Made by a program: the position numbers and the translations under genes. Positions 24,006-42,297 of a DNA stretch of 64,000 bases are shown piece after piece. Position 1 is the first letter of the stretch. Each line of letters starts with the position of its first letter. The notes under the pieces are model-generated. The model was not told where the DNA came from and made no database searches. It saw nothing but the letters and a program-made list of their open reading frames with translations. The DNA is from Bacteroidaceae bacterium. GTDB taxonomy: Bacteria; Bacteroidota; Bacteroidia; Bacteroidales; Bacteroidaceae. The stretch lies in contig JAZRLR010000006.1 of the NCBI GenBank assembly GCA_045646965.1, positions 234-64,233 on the forward strand, given 5' to 3'.

Positions 24006-27000
24006 TTAAAATATCACTTTTTTGTTCTTGTAGATGAAGATACCCTTTGCTGGGGTGTTCACCTTGCGTCCGAAGAGGTCGTATACACTCTCCTCGTCTG
24101 CAGCCTCGTCGGTGATATCCTCAATGCCGGTGGTGCCGTTGAAGCGGAAGAAGAGAGCCTCTGCTGCGTCGCTCACATTCATATACATCTTGAATGCGTT
24201 GATGTGTGTGCCGTTGTATCTGCGCAGAACTATGCCGTTCTCTGCATCTGCGTCTGTCTGCAGGGTGTAGGGGTTGCCGAGCGAGCTTGTGGCAATCTTC
24301 TCAATGGTTCCCTCGAGCACATTGTCGGCAATTGTCGCCTCGCTCTTTGTTATGGCAAAGTTGTGGGTGCCCTGTGCAGCTTTCAATATCACGGCTGTGT
24401 TTGCGGGAATCACGCCATCCTCGATTGCTGCGAGGTCGATGTATTCGCCGTTGCGCACAGCGGTGTAGGCTGTCACCTCGGCAGGAATCTCAAGTGCCAC
24501 GGGGGCATAGAGGGTTGAATAGCCTGTGGTGCCCACTTTCACGGGAAGCTCTTTAACCTCAATAACCTTCCAGTCGCAGTTGTTTGGGGCGTAGTTGGTG
24601 TTGCGGTCTACACGGTTGCCGTTGTCATATACATACTTTGCTGCGCCGCTGTAGTCGGTGTGCAATGTGAAGTAGTTGTAGTTGCCGCTCTCGGCGTTGC
24701 GGAACTCTATGGTCTGTCCGTTGCTTGCGCCTATACCTCCGATGCAGCGTGTGCCGTTGGTGTATGTACCCTCGCTGTAGCTCAAGAGCTTGCTCTGGGC
24801 GGTGAGGTAGAAGATTGTGGTGGCTGTTGTGCCGTCGGCAATCATAGACATCTGTCCCGATGCTGTGTCGTAGGGGTTGGCACCATTCATATAGTTACCC
24901 GATACACGGCCCTGCAGACGGTAGAACGCTTCGCTCTTGGGGGCGGGGAAGGCTGCTGCCTTCACCTCATCGCTCATAACCTCGGAGAGGTCGATGGGTA
25001 CATATACGATATTATAGGCAAATGTGCCGTCGTCGGGGTCCTCCTCAAAGAGGAAACCTATGGTCTTTCCGTCGGGCAGAAGAGTCATTGTAGAGTAGGC
25101 CGAGCCTATGTGTGACACCTGAATGAGCTCTGACCATCCTGTGGCAATCTCGGCCGAGGTGTACTTCTTGTCTTCTATTACCTTATAATATATAGCTACG
25201 TTACTACGGTCTTTGCCCTGATAGCCGCGCTTGGGTATAGACTGCAAGAGCACGTTGCCCACACGCATAAGCTCGCCGTTGCAGTCGCTCGCGCCGAAGT
25301 TGCTCGAAGCCACGCCGTTCCAGCTACCCTCGCCATTGGCCTTGTCGGTGAAACTGAACACGTTGAAGTAGCGGCCGCCGCCTCTGCGCACGCTCACCAT
25401 AAGGTCGCCGTTGGGCAGCTCCTCCACCTTGGTCTCGTTACCCGCCGAGCAGGCCATACCGTTCTCTATGCCTCCCAGAATGTTCCAGCTCTCGCCGAAG
25501 TTATCCGAGTAAACCACATAGTTGGGGTAGCTGTTGTTTCCGTCGTCGTTGAGCACCACAACGCCGTATATACGATAATACTCGGCACCCTCTTTCTTGT
25601 AGCTCGACTGCAGCAGACGTCCCGAAGTGAGGAACAAACTGTATGCAGTGGGGAAGAGGGCATCCTCCTGTCCCAGGAAGTCGCCTGTTACATCGCTTAT
25701 CTCCCAGGTATCGCCGTCGTCTATTGTAACGATGCGTGCCACGCTGTTGTGGCTTGTAGATGTAGCCCAGTTGAAGCGCTGTTTACCTGCTACGGCCATA
25801 ACGAGGGTTTTGTTACTCTCGCGGTCGCTCACCACGGCTGCGTCGCCAAAGCCCACGTTAAAGACATTGCTGTTTCCGCCCTGTCCGTCGGCTACATAGT
25901 CCTCCTCGGTCCAGCTTATGCCGTCCCAGTCGAAGTAGCTTGCCGTGCTGCGGCGGAACATAATATCAACCTCTCCCATACCTATATCGTCGCCGCAGGT
26001 GCGGTAGTCGCTTATGGCGATAACCTTGCCGCTCTTTGTGACGGTTATCGCAGGTATGCGGTAGGGAGCGTTTGTGCTCTCCTTGCGATACCAGAAGAGA
26101 TACTGATATTTATTTTCGGTGTCTATGCCGTACTTGGCGGTTATAGTGAGGTCGCCGTCAAATGTGTAGTTTGTGAAATCGGTGGCTGTGGTCTCCTCGC
26201 CCTTGAAGAAACCTGTGTGGGTGTATCCACGGTAGAGCCAGGGCTCTGTGAGGGTGAAGGTACCCAGAGGCAGGTACACTGTTTTGCTTGTCTCGCCCAG
26301 CTTTAATATGGCATTTCCTGTTGTGCCGTTGCTGCTGAACGCCACCTCGGCTATGCGGGTGTTTGTGGGCAGGGGCTGTGTGCCATCTACCGCGACATTC
26401 AGTGTGAGGCAGCCCAGAACCTCAAAGTTCCACCAACCGCCGGTGTCTCCTGCGTTATACAATTTTATGTTGTAGCCCTTGCCGCCGTAGGCGTTCAAGG
26501 TCATATTTGTGTTTTCGCTCGGAACGATGGCATATCCGCTGGTTTTCTTTACAAGTTTCCAGGTTGTGGCGTTGGCAACTGCGGTCATTGTGGCTGCTGT
26601 GCCCTCGGTAGTTGCCGACACGTTGAGGGCGTATGCGCTGCCTGCTGCCTCGTTCTGCAGTTTGAAGCCGTCGGCAGTGCCCACAAGGTACCACACCTCG
26701 CGTGCGCTCTGTATGTTTGCAGGGTGTGTAGTTCCTGCCGCACCGTCGAAGTTGGTCTGGTTTGCTATTCCTGCGGTGTAGTTGTTATCGTTCACCATTC
26801 TCATACGCACCTTCTTTTCGCCAAAAGCCGAGGAGAATACCGCGAGCTCAAATTTCGCATATATAACTTGGTCGGCGGTGAGCTCGCTTATCTCGGTGAC
26901 AGGTACGCTGTGTGCCTCGTCGCTGAAGAAGCCTACGAAGCTGTATATGGGGTTGCACGATACCATATTAAGTGCGGGCGATGTAACGCTCCCGCCGTCA

Positions 27001-41300: not shown

Positions 41301-42297
41301 CAACGGCGTGCAGGTGCTCGAGGAGAACCTCTCGCACCCCGTGTATAGCAATATCCGCTGGATTGAGAACGAGAGCCCCTATGGCACACACAACTTCGGT
41401 GACAAGAGCGCTTATGTGTCATCGGCCAAGGTGAGCACATCACTTGCCGCCGACGGCAGCAGTTGCACTTTCACTGTGAAGGCATCGCACGACAAGTGTC
41501 CCTATAACATCGTTTACACCGTGTATGCAAGCGGCGTTGTGGATATGAAGATATCTTATACACCCAAGACCACTTTGCGTCGTATAGGTATCGACCTCAC
41601 CTTCCCCGCAGGCTACGACGATGTGACATACTATGCAAAGGGCCCCTGGGAGAACTACATCGACCGTCAGCGCGGTTCGTTCCTTGGTGCTTACACCACA
41701 ACCGTAGACGATATGTTTGAGATGTATGCCCACCCGCAGTCTATGGGTAATCGTATGGCTCTGCGCGAGCTCACCATACAGAACCCCGAAAACGGAAACG
41801 CGATAAAGGTGGAGACCGAGGGCGAGGTATCTTTCTCTCTCTCACACTACAACCAGGCGCAGTATCTTGTACCGCAGATACACGCGTGGGAGCTTAAGAG
41901 AGACGATGTGATATATGCCACATTCGACTATATGCAGCGAGGTCTGGGTAACGGCAGCTGCGGCCCCGGCACCGAGAGTATGTATCTCTGCCCCACAAGC
42001 GGCACATATACCCACACTCTGCGCATAAGCACATCAAACGGCAATGACACAAGCGTTGAGAGCACAGGTGTAAAGAGCTGCACCATAAGCTATGACGCCG
42101 ACAACGAGGTTCTCGTGTGTGAGAATATCCCCGCTCCCGGCGAGGTGCAGGTGCTCAATATAGGCGGTATAACCGTAGGCAAGGCTGTAGCCGAGGGTGC
42201 GGCACGCATTTCGCTTGCAGGCGCGCCCAAGGGCTCATATATCGCCATAATAAACGCAGGCGGTGAGCAGCGCGTTCACAAATTCCTCAAAAAGTAA
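35368..42297 (+). CDS. Giant secreted bifunctional glycosidase: N-terminal GH84 beta-N-acetylglucosaminidase (O-GlcNAcase type), four lectin-like modules, LacZ-type GH2 beta-galactosidase, T9SS-type C-terminal tail
   Basis: 2309-aa uninterrupted ORF with signal peptide [27 protein letters not shown].
- GH84 motifs: [37 protein letters not shown] (D264, D265).
- GH2 motifs: [36 protein letters not shown] (E1671), [15 protein letters not shown] (E1737), [10 protein letters not shown], and a beta-gal small-chain-like GPWENYIDR.
- C-terminus: [21 protein letters not shown]. Confidence 0.85.
35809..36687 (+). other. GH84 catalytic (beta/alpha)8 module
   Basis: aa ~148-440, with the catalytic Asp-Asp pair encoded at 36157-36162. 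Confidence 0.8.
37216..38970 (+). other. Four tandem lectin-like (probable beta-trefoil/ricin-B-like) modules with a Pro/Glu linker
   Basis: The modules lie at about 37216-37620, 37663-38060, 38115-38525 and 38560-38970. The [14 protein letters not shown] linker is encoded at about 38066-38110. Recurrent Q-x-W-type signatures are QEWKI, QEWRI, GQKWGF and GQVWSL, each followed by x-Y-x-I-x-N. Confidence 0.55.
38978..42030 (+). other. LacZ-type GH2 beta-galactosidase region (sugar-binding, Ig-like, TIM barrel, C-terminal small-chain-like domain)
   Basis: It starts at [22 protein letters not shown]. The acid/base Glu codon is at 40378-40380 and the nucleophile Glu codon at 40576-40578. Confidence 0.85.
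42076..42294 (+). other. T9SS-type C-terminal sorting domain of the GH84-GH2 protein
   Basis: The last ~73 aa read [73 protein letters not shown]. Confidence 0.65.

What the first reader, a model, noticed from the sequence alone, without database searches (positions are those of the whole stretch)
24006..42297. 18-kb non-PUL locus: three T9SS-tagged mega-exoglycosidases with five catalytic modules (GH20+GH33, GH20, GH84+GH2)
Seen in the sequence:
- Three adjacent ORFs of 2489, 1173 and 2309 aa (5971 aa in total). Each has a Sec-type signal peptide and a C-terminal tail resembling T9SS sorting domains: ...VYDLFGRKVNTPAKGIFIYKNKKVIF, ...IYDIRGNKVESISSPGLYIVNGEKVLVK and ...[21 protein letters not shown].
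- Five catalytic modules that look intact:
  - GH20: HWHFTENQAWRFE, HIGADEE
  - GH33 sialidase: YRIPAI, Asp boxes, catalytic-type Tyr
  - a second GH20: HWHLTDDQGWRIE, HFGGDE
  - GH84: [20 protein letters not shown]
  - LacZ-type GH2: [18 protein letters not shown]

Established knowledge: sialidase, then beta-galactosidase, then beta-N-acetylhexosaminidase is the exo-enzyme series that strips sialyl-LacNAc antennae from host N- and O-glycans. The pneumococcal surface trio NanA/BgaA/StrH does exactly this.

Inference: this looks like a Bacteroidales counterpart in which the series is condensed into fused polypeptides and exported or anchored by the type IX secretion system. It does not use the SusC/SusD PUL organisation. 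No SusC/SusD, hybrid two-component, or ECF-sigma/anti-sigma gene is adjacent: the flanks are lpdA plus two unknown genes on one side and a GT2 plus an antiporter on the other. I do not know of a characterised locus with this architecture.
Basis: partly seen in the sequence, partly recalled or inferred. Interest (0 to 1): 0.8.

Follow-up and report, generated by a model that had tools for sequence, protein, structure and literature searches.

The report
Giant secreted host-glycan-stripping enzyme fusions
An uncultured gut Prevotella-like bacterium encodes three huge neighbouring enzymes, two of them fusions of two sugar-cleaving modules, that carry type IX secretion tags and look built to strip sialic acid, galactose and N-acetylhexosamines from host mucus glycans outside the usual Bacteroidales sugar-uptake loci.

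Summary
Three intact ORFs of 2489, 1173 and 2309 aa carry five catalytic modules: GH20+GH33, GH20, and GH84+LacZ-type GH2. Catalytic motifs are preserved. They also carry many lectin modules (ricin-type beta-trefoil, F5/8-C, LamG).

An independent assembly holds the same three genes at 99% identity, so the fusions are not assembly joins.

All three have T9SS sorting signals, but of two kinds. P3 has a classical 76-aa type A CTD (TIGR04183 24.1 bits against a cutoff of 23; the model matches solved T9SS CTDs). P1 and P2 have 40- and 41-aa tails that Pfam and NCBIfam miss. These match the "short CTD" shown experimentally in Prevotella intermedia (Ye et al. 2025).

No SusC/SusD, HTCS or ECF gene lies in the 64-kb window.

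Only the divergent P2/P3 pair is conserved in other species. P1 sits beside it only in this species, and the genes look separately transcribed.

The fusions are common in uncultured Bacteroidaceae, Prevotella and Alloprevotella MAGs, mostly from ruminant hindguts, and none is characterised.

The concept has precedents: T9SS-linked multi-catalytic cellulases in rumen Bacteroidales, SiaBb3 (GH33+GH123), pneumococcal NanA/BgaA/StrH. I class it as a new variant of a known kind. Activities, order of action and secretion remain inferred.

The parts
24006..31475 (-). P1, 2489 aa. Order of parts: signal peptide, GH20b+GH20, helical linker, ricin-type beta-trefoil, LamG-like, F5/8-C (CBM32-like), beta-trefoils, GH33 sialidase, two C-terminal beta domains, short T9SS CTD.
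   Evidence: ORF. Domains. A 99% identical copy is in independent assembly L001.
30036..31397 (-). P1 GH20 module (about aa 27-480), a divergent subfamily. The catalytic Asp-Glu pair is in HIGADEE.
   Evidence: PF02838 and PF00728. Alignment to PDB 3gh4 Hex1-TS12 places HIGADEE on HLGGDE. H[IL]G[AG]DE is present in 120/120 homologue clusters.
24963..26249 (-). P1 GH33 exo-alpha-sialidase module (aa 1743-2171). It has YRIPAI, GDDIG (acid/base Asp), NETKVEEL...VR, DRSNV, SAYSTM (nucleophile Tyr) and two clear Asp boxes.
   Evidence: NF052328 at 210.6 bits. PDB 10qf at E 9e-48 across the whole domain. The Asp aligns with the only position that differs between 10qf and its variant 10qi.
24009..24128 (-). 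P1 short T9SS CTD, 40 aa. Predicted PorU cleavage is at T2449|G2450 (GTT|GIE). Motif B is VYDLFGRKV, motif D is GIFI and motif E is KKVIF.
   Evidence: Tag alignment A2. It matches the short-CTD definition of PMC11969387. The AF2 model shows a small beta-sheet in the last 27 aa at pLDDT about 85. No Pfam or NCBIfam hit.
31582..35103 (-). P2, 1173 aa. Order of parts: signal peptide, N-terminal beta-trefoil, GH20b+GH20, beta-trefoils, short T9SS CTD.
   Evidence: Orthologues of 1177 aa pair with P3 orthologues in L049 and L051.
33001..34575 (-). P2 GH20 module (aa 177-701), canonical. It has HWHLTDDQGWRIE and the catalytic Asp-Glu in HFGGDE.
   Evidence: PF00728 at 350 bits, profile positions 3-346 of 348. 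PDB 7dup at E 1.5e-121.
31585..31707 (-). P2 short T9SS CTD, 41 aa. Predicted cleavage is at PT1132|E1133-I. Motifs are IYDIRGNKV, GLYIV and EKVLVK.
35368..42297 (+). P3, 2309 aa. Order of parts: signal peptide, GH84 (with N-terminal GH20b-like domain and post-catalytic helical domain), about 3-4 ricin-type beta-trefoils, five-domain LacZ-type GH2, long type A T9SS CTD.
   Evidence: A 99% identical copy is in L001. Orthologues of 2299-2306 aa at about 73% identity are.
35455..37050 (+). P3 GH84 beta-N-acetylglucosaminidase module (aa 30-561). The catalytic Asp-Asp is in AVFFDDVW.
   Evidence: PF07555 at 374 bits. NF041654 at 683 bits. PDB BT_4395 (2vvn) at E 1.6e-143.
38977..42051 (+). P3 LacZ-type GH2 beta-galactosidase module (aa 1204-2228). 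The acid/base Glu is in WSLGNESG and the nucleophile Glu is in [10 protein letters not shown].
   Evidence: NF052611 at 854 bits. PDB 6sd0 at E 3e-186. E. coli LacZ structures at E about 1e-136.
42067..42294 (+). P3 long (type A) T9SS CTD, about 76 aa. It is a beta-sandwich ending [21 protein letters not shown].
   Evidence: TIGR04183 at 24.1 bits against a cutoff of 23 for the isolated tail. AF2 model at pLDDT 95. Foldseek matches are the NucA CTD in the T9SS translocon complex 8glk_D (TM 0.77), the mirolase CTD 8qb1 (TM 0.79) and PorZ 5m11.
35104..35367 (.). Divergent P2/P3 intergenic region. It is AT-rich and has TATATTTG (a Bacteroidetes -7-like motif) at 35320-35327, upstream of P3.
   Evidence: Sequence. 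The divergent arrangement is conserved in L049 and L051, but the sequence is poorly conserved.
31530..31564 (-). Stem-loop with an 11-bp stem between the P2 stop and the P1 start. It is probably a transcript boundary.
   Evidence: Read.

Best explanation
The locus encodes three Sec-exported, T9SS-sorted, multi-modular exo-glycosidases of an uncultured Prevotellaceae-like gut bacterium (GTDB-style Bacteroidaceae).

Proposed route:
1. Each protein crosses the inner membrane by the Sec pathway.
2. Its C-terminal domain is recognised by the type IX machinery (PorV shuttle and Sov translocon). P1 and P2 carry the short 40-41-aa three-strand form. P3 carries the long 76-aa Ig-like form.
3. The PorU sortase cleaves the CTD in the linker (predicted GTT|GI in P1, PT|EI in P2, ST|GV in P3).
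4. The mature enzyme is released, or is amide-linked to a surface glycan or LPS, so it ends up on the cell or on vesicles.

Outside the cell:
- About ten lectin modules (ricin-type beta-trefoils, F5/8-C, LamG) hold the enzymes on animal glycoconjugates.
- The catalytic modules remove terminal sugars: Neu5Ac (GH33), beta-Gal (GH2), and beta-GlcNAc or beta-GalNAc (two GH20 modules and GH84).
- The products are monosaccharides, so no SusC/SusD oligosaccharide importer needs to be linked.

Shown here: the ORFs, the families, the catalytic motifs, the CTD types, the context and the distribution. Inferred: actual secretion and anchoring, substrate identity, and the order of action and synergy within each fusion.
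For: Families and catalytic motifs.

Lectin modules.

Long CTD of P3, by sequence and fold.

Short CTDs of P1 and P2:
- The conserved two-block tag has T and I nearly invariant at the predicted cleavage site, followed by IYDLxGRRVxxPxKGIYIVNGKKVxxK.
- It matches the experimentally validated short CTDs of P. intermedia.
- 8 of 32 tags give weak TIGR04183 hits, the only family that recurs.
- More distant GH84-GH2 fusions carry the short tag exactly where P3 carries the long CTD, so the two are interchangeable.
- The tag profile hits 46,530 representative clusters, always at the extreme C-terminus in the listed best hits. Cargo types seen among them are typical of T9SS: BspA-type LRR, GH95, lectin proteins.

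Other support:
- A 73% P1 orthologue lies beside GH29 and porP-gldK-gldL-gldM-gldN.
- None of the three signal peptides has a credible lipobox, so export by surface lipidation is unlikely (by reading).
- The context is housekeeping, both here and around P2/P3 orthologues.
- Independent assemblies exclude chimeras.
- GH84 and GH20 cooperate on mucin cores in B. bifidum. A GH33+GH123 fusion acts sequentially on the Sda antigen.
Against: - No experiment exists on any member of these families.
- No T9SS component gene is in the window, so the machinery is only inferred for this genome.
- The P1 and P2 tags fail Pfam and NCBIfam T9SS models. Profile-profile comparison of the tag with the P3-type CTD gave no match (hhalign probability 0.3%).
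- The P1 GH20 is divergent. Pfam aligns only positions 1-116 of 348, and HWHFTENQAW replaces the usual HWHLTDDQGW, so its specificity, or even its activity, is uncertain.
- The LacZ-type module has Asp where E. coli LacZ has the Mg ligand Glu416 (by reading).
- P1 adjacency is species-specific, and the genes look separately transcribed. Co-regulation as one system is therefore unproven.
- The sources are mostly ruminant hindgut MAGs. The host-glycan substrate is inferred from sialidase and lectin content only.
Confidence: 0.72

Rival explanations
1. The three genes are independent enzymes that merely lie side by side. There is no three-gene system. At most, the P2/P3 divergent pair is a unit, and P1 was juxtaposed by rearrangement in this species.
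For: P1+P2+P3 occur together only in the same-species contig L001. In 40+ other loci the P1 orthologues have no P2 or P3 orthologue within 10 kb. The P2/P3 pair recurs without P1 in L049 and L051. In one MAG (CAYRFX01) the P1 homologue is on another contig. A hairpin and terminators separate the genes.
Against: The five activities are complementary for one substrate class. All three proteins share the same lectin module types and the same secretion route. The lineage repeatedly fuses or clusters such modules, for example in tandem arrays of giant CTD genes in L005, L029, L038 and L047. This rival concerns genomic organisation only. It does not contradict the biochemical reading.
Confidence: 0.4
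2. The natural substrates are not host mucin or N-glycans. They could be other sialylated or hexosamine-rich glycans, such as microbial capsules or LOS, milk oligosaccharides, glycosphingolipids shed from epithelium, or fungal or chitin-derived material.
For: The best PDB relative of the P1 GH20 is Hex1-TS12 (3gh4). From my own knowledge, this enzyme was described as acting on glycosphingolipids. GH84 and GH20 are not specific to mucin. No substrate data exist.
Against: Sialidase together with LacZ-type beta-galactosidase, GH84, GH20 and Gal/GalNAc-type lectin modules (ricin B, F5/8-C) is the signature of animal glycan degraders. Sister architectures in the same lineage add GH16, GH29, GH95 and reprolysin-like peptidase domains. 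The sources are hindgut samples.
Confidence: 0.15
3. The short tails of P1 and P2 are not secretion signals. The enzymes stay in the periplasm, or use another route, and process imported oligosaccharides.
For: No hit to TIGR04183, PF18962, or the type B or type C models. hhalign against the P3-type CTD gave no match. Foldseek on the tag model found nothing.
Against: The tag matches every motif of the short CTDs for which cleavage and C-terminal glycosylation were shown by mass spectrometry in P. intermedia. It always sits at the extreme C-terminus. It is more conserved than the adjacent domains across hundreds of proteins. It is interchangeable with a long CTD in orthologues. Proteins of 1200-2500 aa carrying many lectin modules make little sense in the periplasm.
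Confidence: 0.1
4. The giant fusions are assembly or gene-calling artefacts.
For: The sequences are of metagenomic origin. No isolate or long-read genome was seen.
Against: An independent ENA assembly carries all three genes at about 99% identity with identical lengths. Eight further clusters of 2485-2506 aa and eleven of 2284-2306 aa come from other assemblies, some seen on up to 13 contigs. 118 of 120 top P1 homologue clusters carry both GH20 and GH33.
Confidence: 0.02

Closest known systems
T9SS-linked multi-catalytic CAZymes of rumen Bacteroidales ('Candidatus Paraporphyromonas polyenzymogenes', Naas et al. 2018, PMC5831590); also F. johnsoniae ChiA
   Same: Gut Bacteroidales. [quoted passage not shown]
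   Different: Those enzymes are endo/exo cellulases, xylanases or chitinases for plant or chitin polymers (GH5, GH18 and others) with classical CTDs. Here the modules are exo-glycosidases for animal sialoglycans (GH33, GH2, GH20, GH84), and two of the three proteins carry the short CTD.
Short and long T9SS CTDs of Prevotella intermedia (Ye et al. 2025, PMC11969387)
   Same: The P1 and P2 tags are 40-41 aa from the predicted cleavage site. They have the T|G-I cleavage motif with a conserved Ile at +2, motif B (Y..G plus a basic residue), 1-6 residues to motif D (GxY-I), and a basic motif E. P3 has a long CTD of about 76 aa. Both kinds occur in one organism.
   Different: In P. intermedia the cargo are LRR proteins, proteases and adhesins. 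Glycosidase fusions were not described. [quoted passage not shown] Here both occur in one locus of a gut MAG, and the short tag profile hits 46,530 protein clusters.
SiaBb3 of Bifidobacterium bifidum, a bifunctional GH33 sialidase and GH123 beta-N-acetylgalactosaminidase (Katoh et al. 2025, PMC12856340)
   Same: One polypeptide joins a sialidase to a beta-N-acetylhexosaminidase. It acts sequentially (Neu5Ac first, then GalNAc) on the Sda/GM2 epitope of colonic mucin. It is the best functional model for P1.
   Different: The hexosaminidase family differs (GH123 against GH20), as does the phylum. It is anchored in a Gram-positive cell wall, not exported by T9SS. P1 specificity is untested.
Streptococcus pneumoniae NanA / BgaA / StrH
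   Same: A surface-attached exo-series of sialidase (GH33), beta-galactosidase (GH2) and beta-N-acetylglucosaminidase (GH20, two tandem catalytic modules in StrH) that deglycosylates host complex glycans. PDB StrH entries appear among the weak P2 hits.
   Different: Those are three separate proteins, with sortase/LPXTG anchoring in a Gram-positive and genes not clustered. There is no GH84 and no heterologous fusion.
Clostridium perfringens large modular glycosidases (NagJ/NagH GH84, NanJ GH33) and the Limousia 'mucinolysome' (PMC12997984)
   Same: Extracellular assemblies of GH84, GH33, GH20 and GH2 modules with CBM32/F5-8-C-type lectins for mucin breakdown. Several activities are physically coupled.
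   Different: Coupling there is non-covalent (cohesin-dockerin) in Firmicutes. Here it is covalent fusion, plus a shared T9SS route, in Bacteroidota.
BT_4395 (BtGH84) and LacZ-type beta-galactosidases of Bacteroides (3dec, 3bga)
   Same: They are the closest solved relatives of the two P3 catalytic modules (E 1.6e-143 and about 1e-168).
   Different: They are single-module proteins of about 700-1000 aa without a CTD, in a genus that, to my knowledge, lacks T9SS.

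Membership tests
GH20 beta-N-acetylhexosaminidase (P1 N-terminus, P2) | (beta/alpha)8 catalytic domain preceded by the GH20b domain, with significant family-profile matches. | tested here: met
   P2: PF00728 at 350 bits over positions 3-346 of 348, PF02838 at 74 bits, PDB 7dup at E 1.5e-121. P1: PF00728 at 128.8 bits but only positions 1-116 of 348, PF02838 at 51 bits, PDB 3gh4 aligned over residues 11-342.
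GH20 beta-N-acetylhexosaminidase (P1 N-terminus, P2) | Catalytic Asp-Glu pair in the H-x-G-G-D-E motif (substrate-assisted mechanism). | tested here: met
   P2 has HFGGDE. P1 has HIGADEE, aligned to HLGGDE of 3gh4. The motif is present in 120/120 P1 homologue clusters. P1 deviates in the HWH..DDQGW motif (it has TENQAW). Activity and specificity were not tested.
GH33 exo-alpha-sialidase (P1 residues 1743-2171) | Six-bladed propeller with the RIP Arg, two further Arg, acid/base Asp, and the Glu/Tyr nucleophile pair, plus Asp boxes. | tested here: met
   Full-domain alignment to solved exo-alpha-sialidases (10qf at E 9e-48; 8gn6; 1eur). Aligned residues are YRIPA, the GDD Asp (at the only position differing between 10qf and its variant 10qi), NE.KVEEL...R, (D/G)RS.V and SAYSTM. 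NF052328 gives 210.6 bits, below its equivalog cutoff of 900, so it is not an orthologue of TDE0471. P1 itself has no Pfam BNR_2 hit, but homologues have PF13088.
GH84 beta-N-acetylglucosaminidase (P3 N-terminus) | NAGidase TIM barrel with adjacent catalytic Asp-Asp, an N-terminal GH20b-like domain and a helical post-catalytic domain. | tested here: met
   PF07555 at 374 bits (positions 1-294 of 295), PF02838 at 58 bits, PF21809 at 44.6 bits. BT_4395 structures at E about 1e-143 over residues 20-618. FFDDV is read in the sequence and present in 21 of 22 fusion orthologues.
LacZ-type GH2 beta-galactosidase (P3 C-terminus) | Five-domain LacZ architecture, with the acid/base Glu in NES and the nucleophile Glu in EYAHAMGN. 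| tested here: met
   PF02837, PF00703, PF02836, PF16353 and PF02929 are all present. NF052611 gives 854 bits against a cutoff of 999, so it is below equivalog level. E. coli LacZ structures align at E about 1e-136 over residues 1205-2214. WSLGNESG and [10 protein letters not shown] are read directly. The Mg-ligand position has Asp instead of Glu (by reading; not tested further).
T9SS cargo, type A (long) CTD: P3 | C-terminal Ig-like beta-sandwich of about 70-100 aa matching TIGR04183/PF18962, with motifs D (GxY) and E (basic) at the end. | tested here: met
   TIGR04183 at 24.1 bits against a cutoff of 23 for the isolated tail, but 19.1 bits in the full protein. PF18962 at 16.8 bits, below its cutoff of 27. 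AF2 model at pLDDT 95. Foldseek top hits include T9SS CTDs 8glk_D, 8qb1 and 5m11 at TM 0.77-0.79.
T9SS cargo, short CTD (as defined in P. intermedia): P1, P2 | 40-51(55) aa from the cleavage site to the C-terminus. Cleavage motif (P)T|G-I with Ile at +2, 6-11 aa to motif B (Y..G, then a basic residue), 1-6 aa to motif D (GxY-I), and motif E with conserved basic residue(s). Predicted structure is a single three-stranded sheet. | tested here: met
   P1: GTT|GIEDITDEAADEESVYDLFGRKVNTPAKGIFIYKNKKVIF (40 aa). P2: PT|EIVEVEECNGNSAIYDIRGNKVESISSPGLYIVNGEKVLVK (41 aa). T, I, Y, D, L, G, R, G, Y, I and K columns are at least 90% conserved across 32 tags. AF2 shows strands only in the last 27 aa. Caveats: this is a comparison with published motifs, since the authors' HMM was not available, and the spacer between the cleavage motif and motif B is about 12-13 aa here against the published 6-11.
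T9SS cargo (all three) | N-terminal Sec signal peptide. | tested here: inconclusive
   Judged by reading only: MRKQLIATLVAAMALLMPAATQA|K, MKKLFSAILLLCAGLTSLCA|[27 protein letters not shown]|Q. No signal-peptide predictor was available.
T9SS cargo (all three) | The genome encodes the T9SS core (porK/L/M/N, sov, porU, porV, and others). | not testable with these tools
   No such gene is in the 64-kb window. A MAG with a 73% P1 orthologue has porP-gldK-gldL-gldM-gldN beside it.
T9SS cargo (all three) | T9SS-dependent secretion, CTD removal and surface attachment. | not testable with these tools
   This needs proteomics or genetics.
Polysaccharide utilisation locus (PUL) | Adjacent susC/susD pair, usually with an HTCS or ECF-sigma/anti-sigma regulator. 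| tested here: not met
   All ORFs of 500 aa or more in the window are accounted for: rpoB, presumed rpoC (1449 aa, not scanned; assigned from its position next to rpoB), a TPR protein, the three glycosidases, a Na+/H+ exchanger, S46 peptidase, PNPase, a GyrB/ParE-like protein and S41 peptidase. There is no TonB-dependent receptor, SusD, HTCS or ECF sigma. The same holds around the P2/P3 orthologues.

The most novel reading that the evidence does not exclude
Gut Prevotellaceae may run a PUL-independent, T9SS-based 'covalent mucinolysome'. In this reading, complementary exo-glycosidases are fused in one polypeptide and tethered to the cell surface or to OMVs through short or long CTDs.

The fused modules would act in obligate sequence on a single antenna. 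P1 (GH33+GH20) would clear Sda/GM2-type Neu5Ac plus beta-GalNAc caps, as SiaBb3 does. P3 (GH2+GH84) would alternate Gal and GlcNAc removal along LacNAc and core 2/4 branches. P2 would take the beta1-3 GlcNAc.

The lineage would then shuffle these modules combinatorially with GH16, GH29, GH95 and a reprolysin-like peptidase.

A corollary follows. Because standard HMMs miss the short CTD, the T9SS secretome of gut Prevotellaceae would be grossly under-annotated (tens of thousands of protein clusters).
Probability: 0.3. Interest if true: 0.7.

Novelty: new variant of a known kind. Interest (0 to 1): 0.5.

Why it matters
Host-glycan foraging by gut Bacteroidales is usually explained by SusC/SusD PULs with surface lipoprotein enzymes. 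These genes point to a second strategy in an abundant, uncultured Prevotella/Alloprevotella-like lineage of animal hindguts. In it, giant T9SS-exported polypeptides covalently couple the exo-activities needed to strip sialylated antennae.

The fusions are frequent. At least 118 clusters combine GH20 and GH33, and 21 combine GH84 and GH2. Further variants add GH16 or a metalloprotease. All are annotated only generically.

They offer ready-made natural experiments on synergy between modules within one polypeptide, and candidate reagents for deglycosylation.

There is also a practical point. Two of the three secretion tags are invisible to Pfam and NCBIfam. T9SS cargo, and so the extracellular CAZyme repertoire, of this lineage is therefore systematically under-called.

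Tried and rejected
1. An exact-sequence look-up of P2 in the assembly index found nothing. The locus was recovered through the 99% identical P0001 instead.
2. Pfam and NCBIfam scans of the isolated P1 and P2 tails at E<=10 gave no T9SS hit. I did not take this as absence of a signal, because the conserved tag and the literature explain it.
3. hhalign of the short-tag profile against the P3-type CTD profile gave probability 0.3%, aligning only KGiYI with GSYI. This is uninformative, because both profiles are short and shallow.
4. Foldseek with the 47-aa tag model found nothing at E<=0.001. The model is too small to search with.
With the 47-aa alignment it returned almost only contig-end fragments named 'hypothetical protein'. 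That was useless for taxonomy. The full HMMER scan was more informative.
6. One Pfam call failed on out-of-frame coordinates and was repeated correctly.
7. Aligning the P2/P3 intergenic regions from three species showed no convincing conserved operator.
8. The sigma-70 promoter scan was at background (15 found, 13.0 expected) and is not suited to Bacteroidota. I ignored it.
9. I considered whether the tail could be an OMP beta-signal (terminal Phe in some). I rejected this because most tails end in Lys and fit CTD motifs D and E.
10. I considered lipoprotein export and rejected it. P1 and P3 have no Cys in the signal region, and the two Cys in the P2 signal peptide are not in lipobox context.
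11. Literature searches found no paper describing these fusions or a T9SS-based mucin system in Bacteroidales.

Full report
**What is there**

- P1: 24006-31475 (-), 2489 aa.
- P2: 31582-35103 (-), 1173 aa.
- P3: 35368-42297 (+), 2309 aa.

P3 is on the opposite strand. It diverges from P2 across a 264-bp AT-rich spacer. Base composition is uniform across the locus and its flanks, so nothing suggests a recent foreign insertion.

**Catalytic modules**

P1:
- It starts with GH20b+GH20 (PF02838 51 bits, PF00728 128.8 bits).
- It contains a sialidase at residues 1743-2171 (NCBIfam neuraminidase NF052328 210.6 bits; PDB exo-alpha-sialidase 10qf at E about 1e-46).

P2:
- It has a canonical GH20 (PF00728 350 bits over the whole profile; PDB 7dup at E 1.5e-121).

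P3:
- It has a full GH84 (PF07555 374 bits; BT_4395 structures at E about 1e-143).
- It has a complete five-domain LacZ-type GH2 (NF052611 854 bits; PDB 6sd0 at E 3e-186; E. coli LacZ at E about 1e-136).

None of the NCBIfam equivalog cutoffs is reached. These are family members, not orthologues of named enzymes.

Catalytic residues:
- The P1 sialidase aligns over its whole propeller with solved sialidases. Aligned residues are the RIP arginine, the acid/base Asp, the Glu, two further Arg and the nucleophile Tyr in SAYSTM. The Asp falls at the single position that distinguishes 10qf from its variant 10qi.
- The P1 GH20 is divergent. Pfam aligns only the first third of the barrel. PDB 3gh4 aligns through residue 342 and places HIGADEE on HLGGDE.
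- H[IL]G[AG]DE and [YF]RIP are present in 120 of 120 homologue clusters.
- FFDDV (GH84), WSLGNESG and [10 protein letters not shown] (GH2) are read directly. They are kept in 19-21 of 22 fusion orthologues.

Between the catalytic modules lie at least nine lectin-type modules. These are ricin-type beta-trefoils (six matched stretches in the P3 linker alone), an F5/8-C domain and a LamG-like domain.

**The fusions are real and common**

An independent ENA assembly (ERZ28436057, NODE_351) carries all three genes at about 99% identity, with the same lengths and the same flanks.

P1-type proteins:
- 432 clusters scored E<=1e-10 among the candidates examined.
- 118 of the best 120 carry both GH20 and GH33.
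- Many add reprolysin-like metalloprotease domains.

P3-type proteins:
- GH84+GH2 fusions form 21 clusters.
- Sister architectures are GH84+GH16 and GH84+GH16+GH20.

All named sources are uncultured Bacteroidaceae, Prevotella, Alloprevotella or Bacteroidales MAGs. Most come from the rectum, colon or caecum of sheep, goat, cattle, buffalo, deer and yak. None carries a functional name beyond 'family 20 glycosylhydrolase' or 'beta-N-acetylglucosaminidase domain-containing protein'.

**Secretion tags**

This was the least secure part of the finding.

P3 tail:
- In isolation it just passes TIGR04183 (24.1 bits against a cutoff of 23). In the full protein it scores 19.1 bits. PF18962 scores 16.8 bits, below its cutoff.
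- An AlphaFold model of the last 75 residues is very confident (pLDDT 95).
- Its best structural matches include the NucA CTD bound in the T9SS translocon (8glk_D, TM 0.77), the mirolase CTD (8qb1, TM 0.79) and PorZ (5m11).
- P3 therefore has a classical long type A CTD.

P1 and P2 tails:
- They hit no T9SS model at all.
- Comparison of 240 homologues shows that nearly all end in one strongly conserved tag. It has a (G)TT-G-I block, about 13 variable residues, and then IYDLxGRRVxxPxKGIYIVNGKKVxxK.
- More distant GH84-GH2 fusions carry this short tag exactly where P3 and its close orthologues carry the long CTD.
- 8 of 32 tags give weak TIGR04183 hits, the only recurrent family.
- AF2 predicts only a small beta-sheet in the last 27 residues, behind a flexible linker.

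The literature settles what the tag is. Ye et al. 2025 (PMC11969387) defined 'short CTDs' in Prevotella intermedia:
- They are 40-51 aa from the cleavage site to the C-terminus.
- The cleavage consensus is PT|GI, with a conserved Ile at +2.
- Motif B has Tyr, Gly and then a basic residue. Only 1-6 residues separate it from motif D (GxY-Ile). Motif E is basic.
- The fold is a single three-stranded sheet that is predicted to bind PorV as long CTDs do.
- They mapped cleavage sites for five short CTDs and showed C-terminal glycosylation by mass spectrometry.

P1 (GTT|GIE..., 40 aa) and P2 (PT|EIV..., 41 aa) fit this description motif for motif. The one deviation is the spacer between the cleavage motif and motif B, which is about 12-13 aa here against the published 6-11.

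An earlier review notes that the last 22 residues of the HBP35 CTD, which hold motifs D and E, suffice for secretion of GFP.

All three proteins are therefore credibly T9SS cargo.

The machinery itself is not in the window. In a MAG with a 73% P1 orthologue, that gene lies beside a GH29 fucosidase and porP-gldK-gldL-gldM-gldN.

**Context and organisation**

- Every large ORF in the window is housekeeping or otherwise unrelated to glycan uptake. They include rpoB, presumed rpoC, lipid acyltransferases, arginine biosynthesis, ino1, lpdA, GT2, a Na+/H+ exchanger, S46 and S41 peptidases and PNPase. There is no SusC/SusD, HTCS or ECF sigma.
- The three-gene arrangement is found only in the same species (L001).
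- In about 45 other loci the P1 orthologues have no P2 or P3 orthologue within 10 kb.
- The divergent P2/P3 pair recurs at about 73% identity in at least two other species, again between housekeeping genes.
- A strong hairpin lies between P2 and P1 (31530-31564). Terminators follow P1 (23953-23981) and P3 (42319-42350). This suggests three transcripts.
- A TATATTTG motif lies 41 nt upstream of the P3 start.
- The '18-kb locus' is thus a conserved two-gene module with a third, thematically matching gene juxtaposed in this species.

**Most likely mechanism**

1. Each protein is exported by the Sec pathway.
2. The T9SS recognises its short or long CTD.
3. PorU cleaves the CTD in the linker.
4. 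The mature enzyme is released, or attached to a surface glycan.
5. The lectin modules dock it on animal glycoconjugates.
6. The catalytic modules remove terminal sugars: Neu5Ac (GH33), Gal (GH2) and GlcNAc/GalNAc (GH20 twice, GH84).
7. The monosaccharide products are taken up without a linked SusC/SusD.

Two characterised systems make the pairings plausible:
- B. bifidum SiaBb3 (GH33+GH123) removes Neu5Ac and then GalNAc from the Sda/GM2 epitope.
- B. bifidum GH84 and GH20 have complementary beta1-6 and beta1-3 GlcNAc specificities on mucin cores, with an obligatory order.

These steps are inference from family membership. Specificity, order of action, synergy and localisation are untested.

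**Comparison and novelty**

The closest concept is the T9SS-linked, PUL-independent, multi-catalytic cellulase system of rumen 'Ca. Paraporphyromonas polyenzymogenes'. The closest functional analogues are pneumococcal NanA/BgaA/StrH, SiaBb3, and the clostridial and Limousia multi-enzyme mucin systems. I found no paper describing GH20+GH33 or GH84+GH2 fusions, or a T9SS-based host-glycan system in Bacteroidales.

I therefore class this as a new variant of a known kind. Every component is familiar: GH families, lectin modules, and short and long CTDs. The combination is uncharacterised but abundant in metagenomes.

I set interest at 0.5. This is a solid, testable lead for glycobiologists and T9SS researchers. 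It is not a surprise in kind.

**Side observation worth recording**

- A profile of the short tag matches 46,530 representative protein clusters at E<=1e-3, and 6,270 at E<=1e-10. In the listed best hits it is always at the extreme C-terminus.
- Sampled carriers are BspA-type LRR proteins, a GH95 and lectin-only proteins. None has a Pfam CTD hit, and NCBI names them 'hypothetical protein'.
- In 1.06 Mb of related loci, 55 of 1334 ORFs of at least 150 aa end in the tag. Most are 800-3600 aa long, and several lie in tandem arrays.
[quoted passage not shown] These data suggest the short form is a major, under-annotated signal across gut Prevotellaceae-like bacteria.

Noticed in passing
window 24009-24128 and 31585-31707; P0241-P0505: The 40-41-aa short T9SS CTD of P1 and P2 is invisible to Pfam and NCBIfam. 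A profile of it hits 46,530 representative protein clusters (6,270 at E<=1e-10), always at the extreme C-terminus in the listed best hits. Sampled carriers are BspA-type LRR proteins, a GH95 and lectin-only proteins, which NCBI names 'hypothetical protein [Bacteroidaceae bacterium]'. The only experimental paper says P. intermedia is the sole species known to have both short and long CTDs.
   Followed up: partly
P0015, P0020-P0022, P0031-P0050 and others (homologues of P1): Many P1-family proteins of 2600-2830 aa add reprolysin-like Zn-metalloprotease domains (PF13582, PF13583, PF13688, PF13574) to GH20+GH33. They are possible glycosidase plus glycoprotease ('mucinase') fusions.
   Followed up: no
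P0143-P0177 (homologues of the P3 N-terminus): Sister architectures are GH84+GH16 (about 1300-1470 aa) and GH84+GH16+GH20 (about 2410-2430 aa). They carry an intermediate-length C-terminal tag (IYTLQGVRLNGSVENLPKGLYIVGGKKVVIK). This suggests combinatorial shuffling of host-glycan modules in this lineage.
   Followed up: no
L002/L003 10763-20464: In MAG GCA_045612305.1 the 73% P1 orthologue is followed by a GH29 fucosidase with an F5/8-C domain, an unknown 718-aa protein, and porP/sprF, gldK (FGE-sulfatase family), gldL, gldM and gldN. That is the T9SS core next to a cargo gene.
   Followed up: partly
L005, L008, L029, L038, L047: These loci hold tandem arrays of two or three neighbouring giant ORFs (800-3600 aa), each ending in the short CTD.
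   Followed up: no
window 22160-23883: Two unknown genes lie downstream of P1: a 230-aa multi-pass membrane protein and a 341-aa secreted protein with two internal repeats (weak DUF3828 and DJ-1 hits). They stay next to the P1 orthologue and lpdA in L004 (31-45% identity), so they are the only conserved neighbours of P1.
   Followed up: partly
window 31530-31564; 23953-23981; 42319-42350; 35320-35327: An 11-bp-stem hairpin without a T-run lies between P2 and P1. A strong terminator follows P1. A bidirectional terminator lies between P3 and the GT2 gene. A TATATTTG (Bacteroidetes -7-like) motif lies upstream of P3.
   Followed up: partly
window 56859-58133: A CotH-kinase-family ORF (PF08757, E 2e-33) sits among housekeeping genes. 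It is unusual but unrelated to the finding.
   Followed up: no
P1 residues 480-800 (window 29076-30038) and 2170-2449 (window 24129-24968): These stretches have no Pfam match at E<=1. The first follows the GH20 barrel and belongs to the most conserved core of the whole family (all homologues cover about residues 1-900). The second contains a beta domain (GYSTLYAPVALEIP...AFKMYM) that often precedes the short CTD.
   Followed up: no
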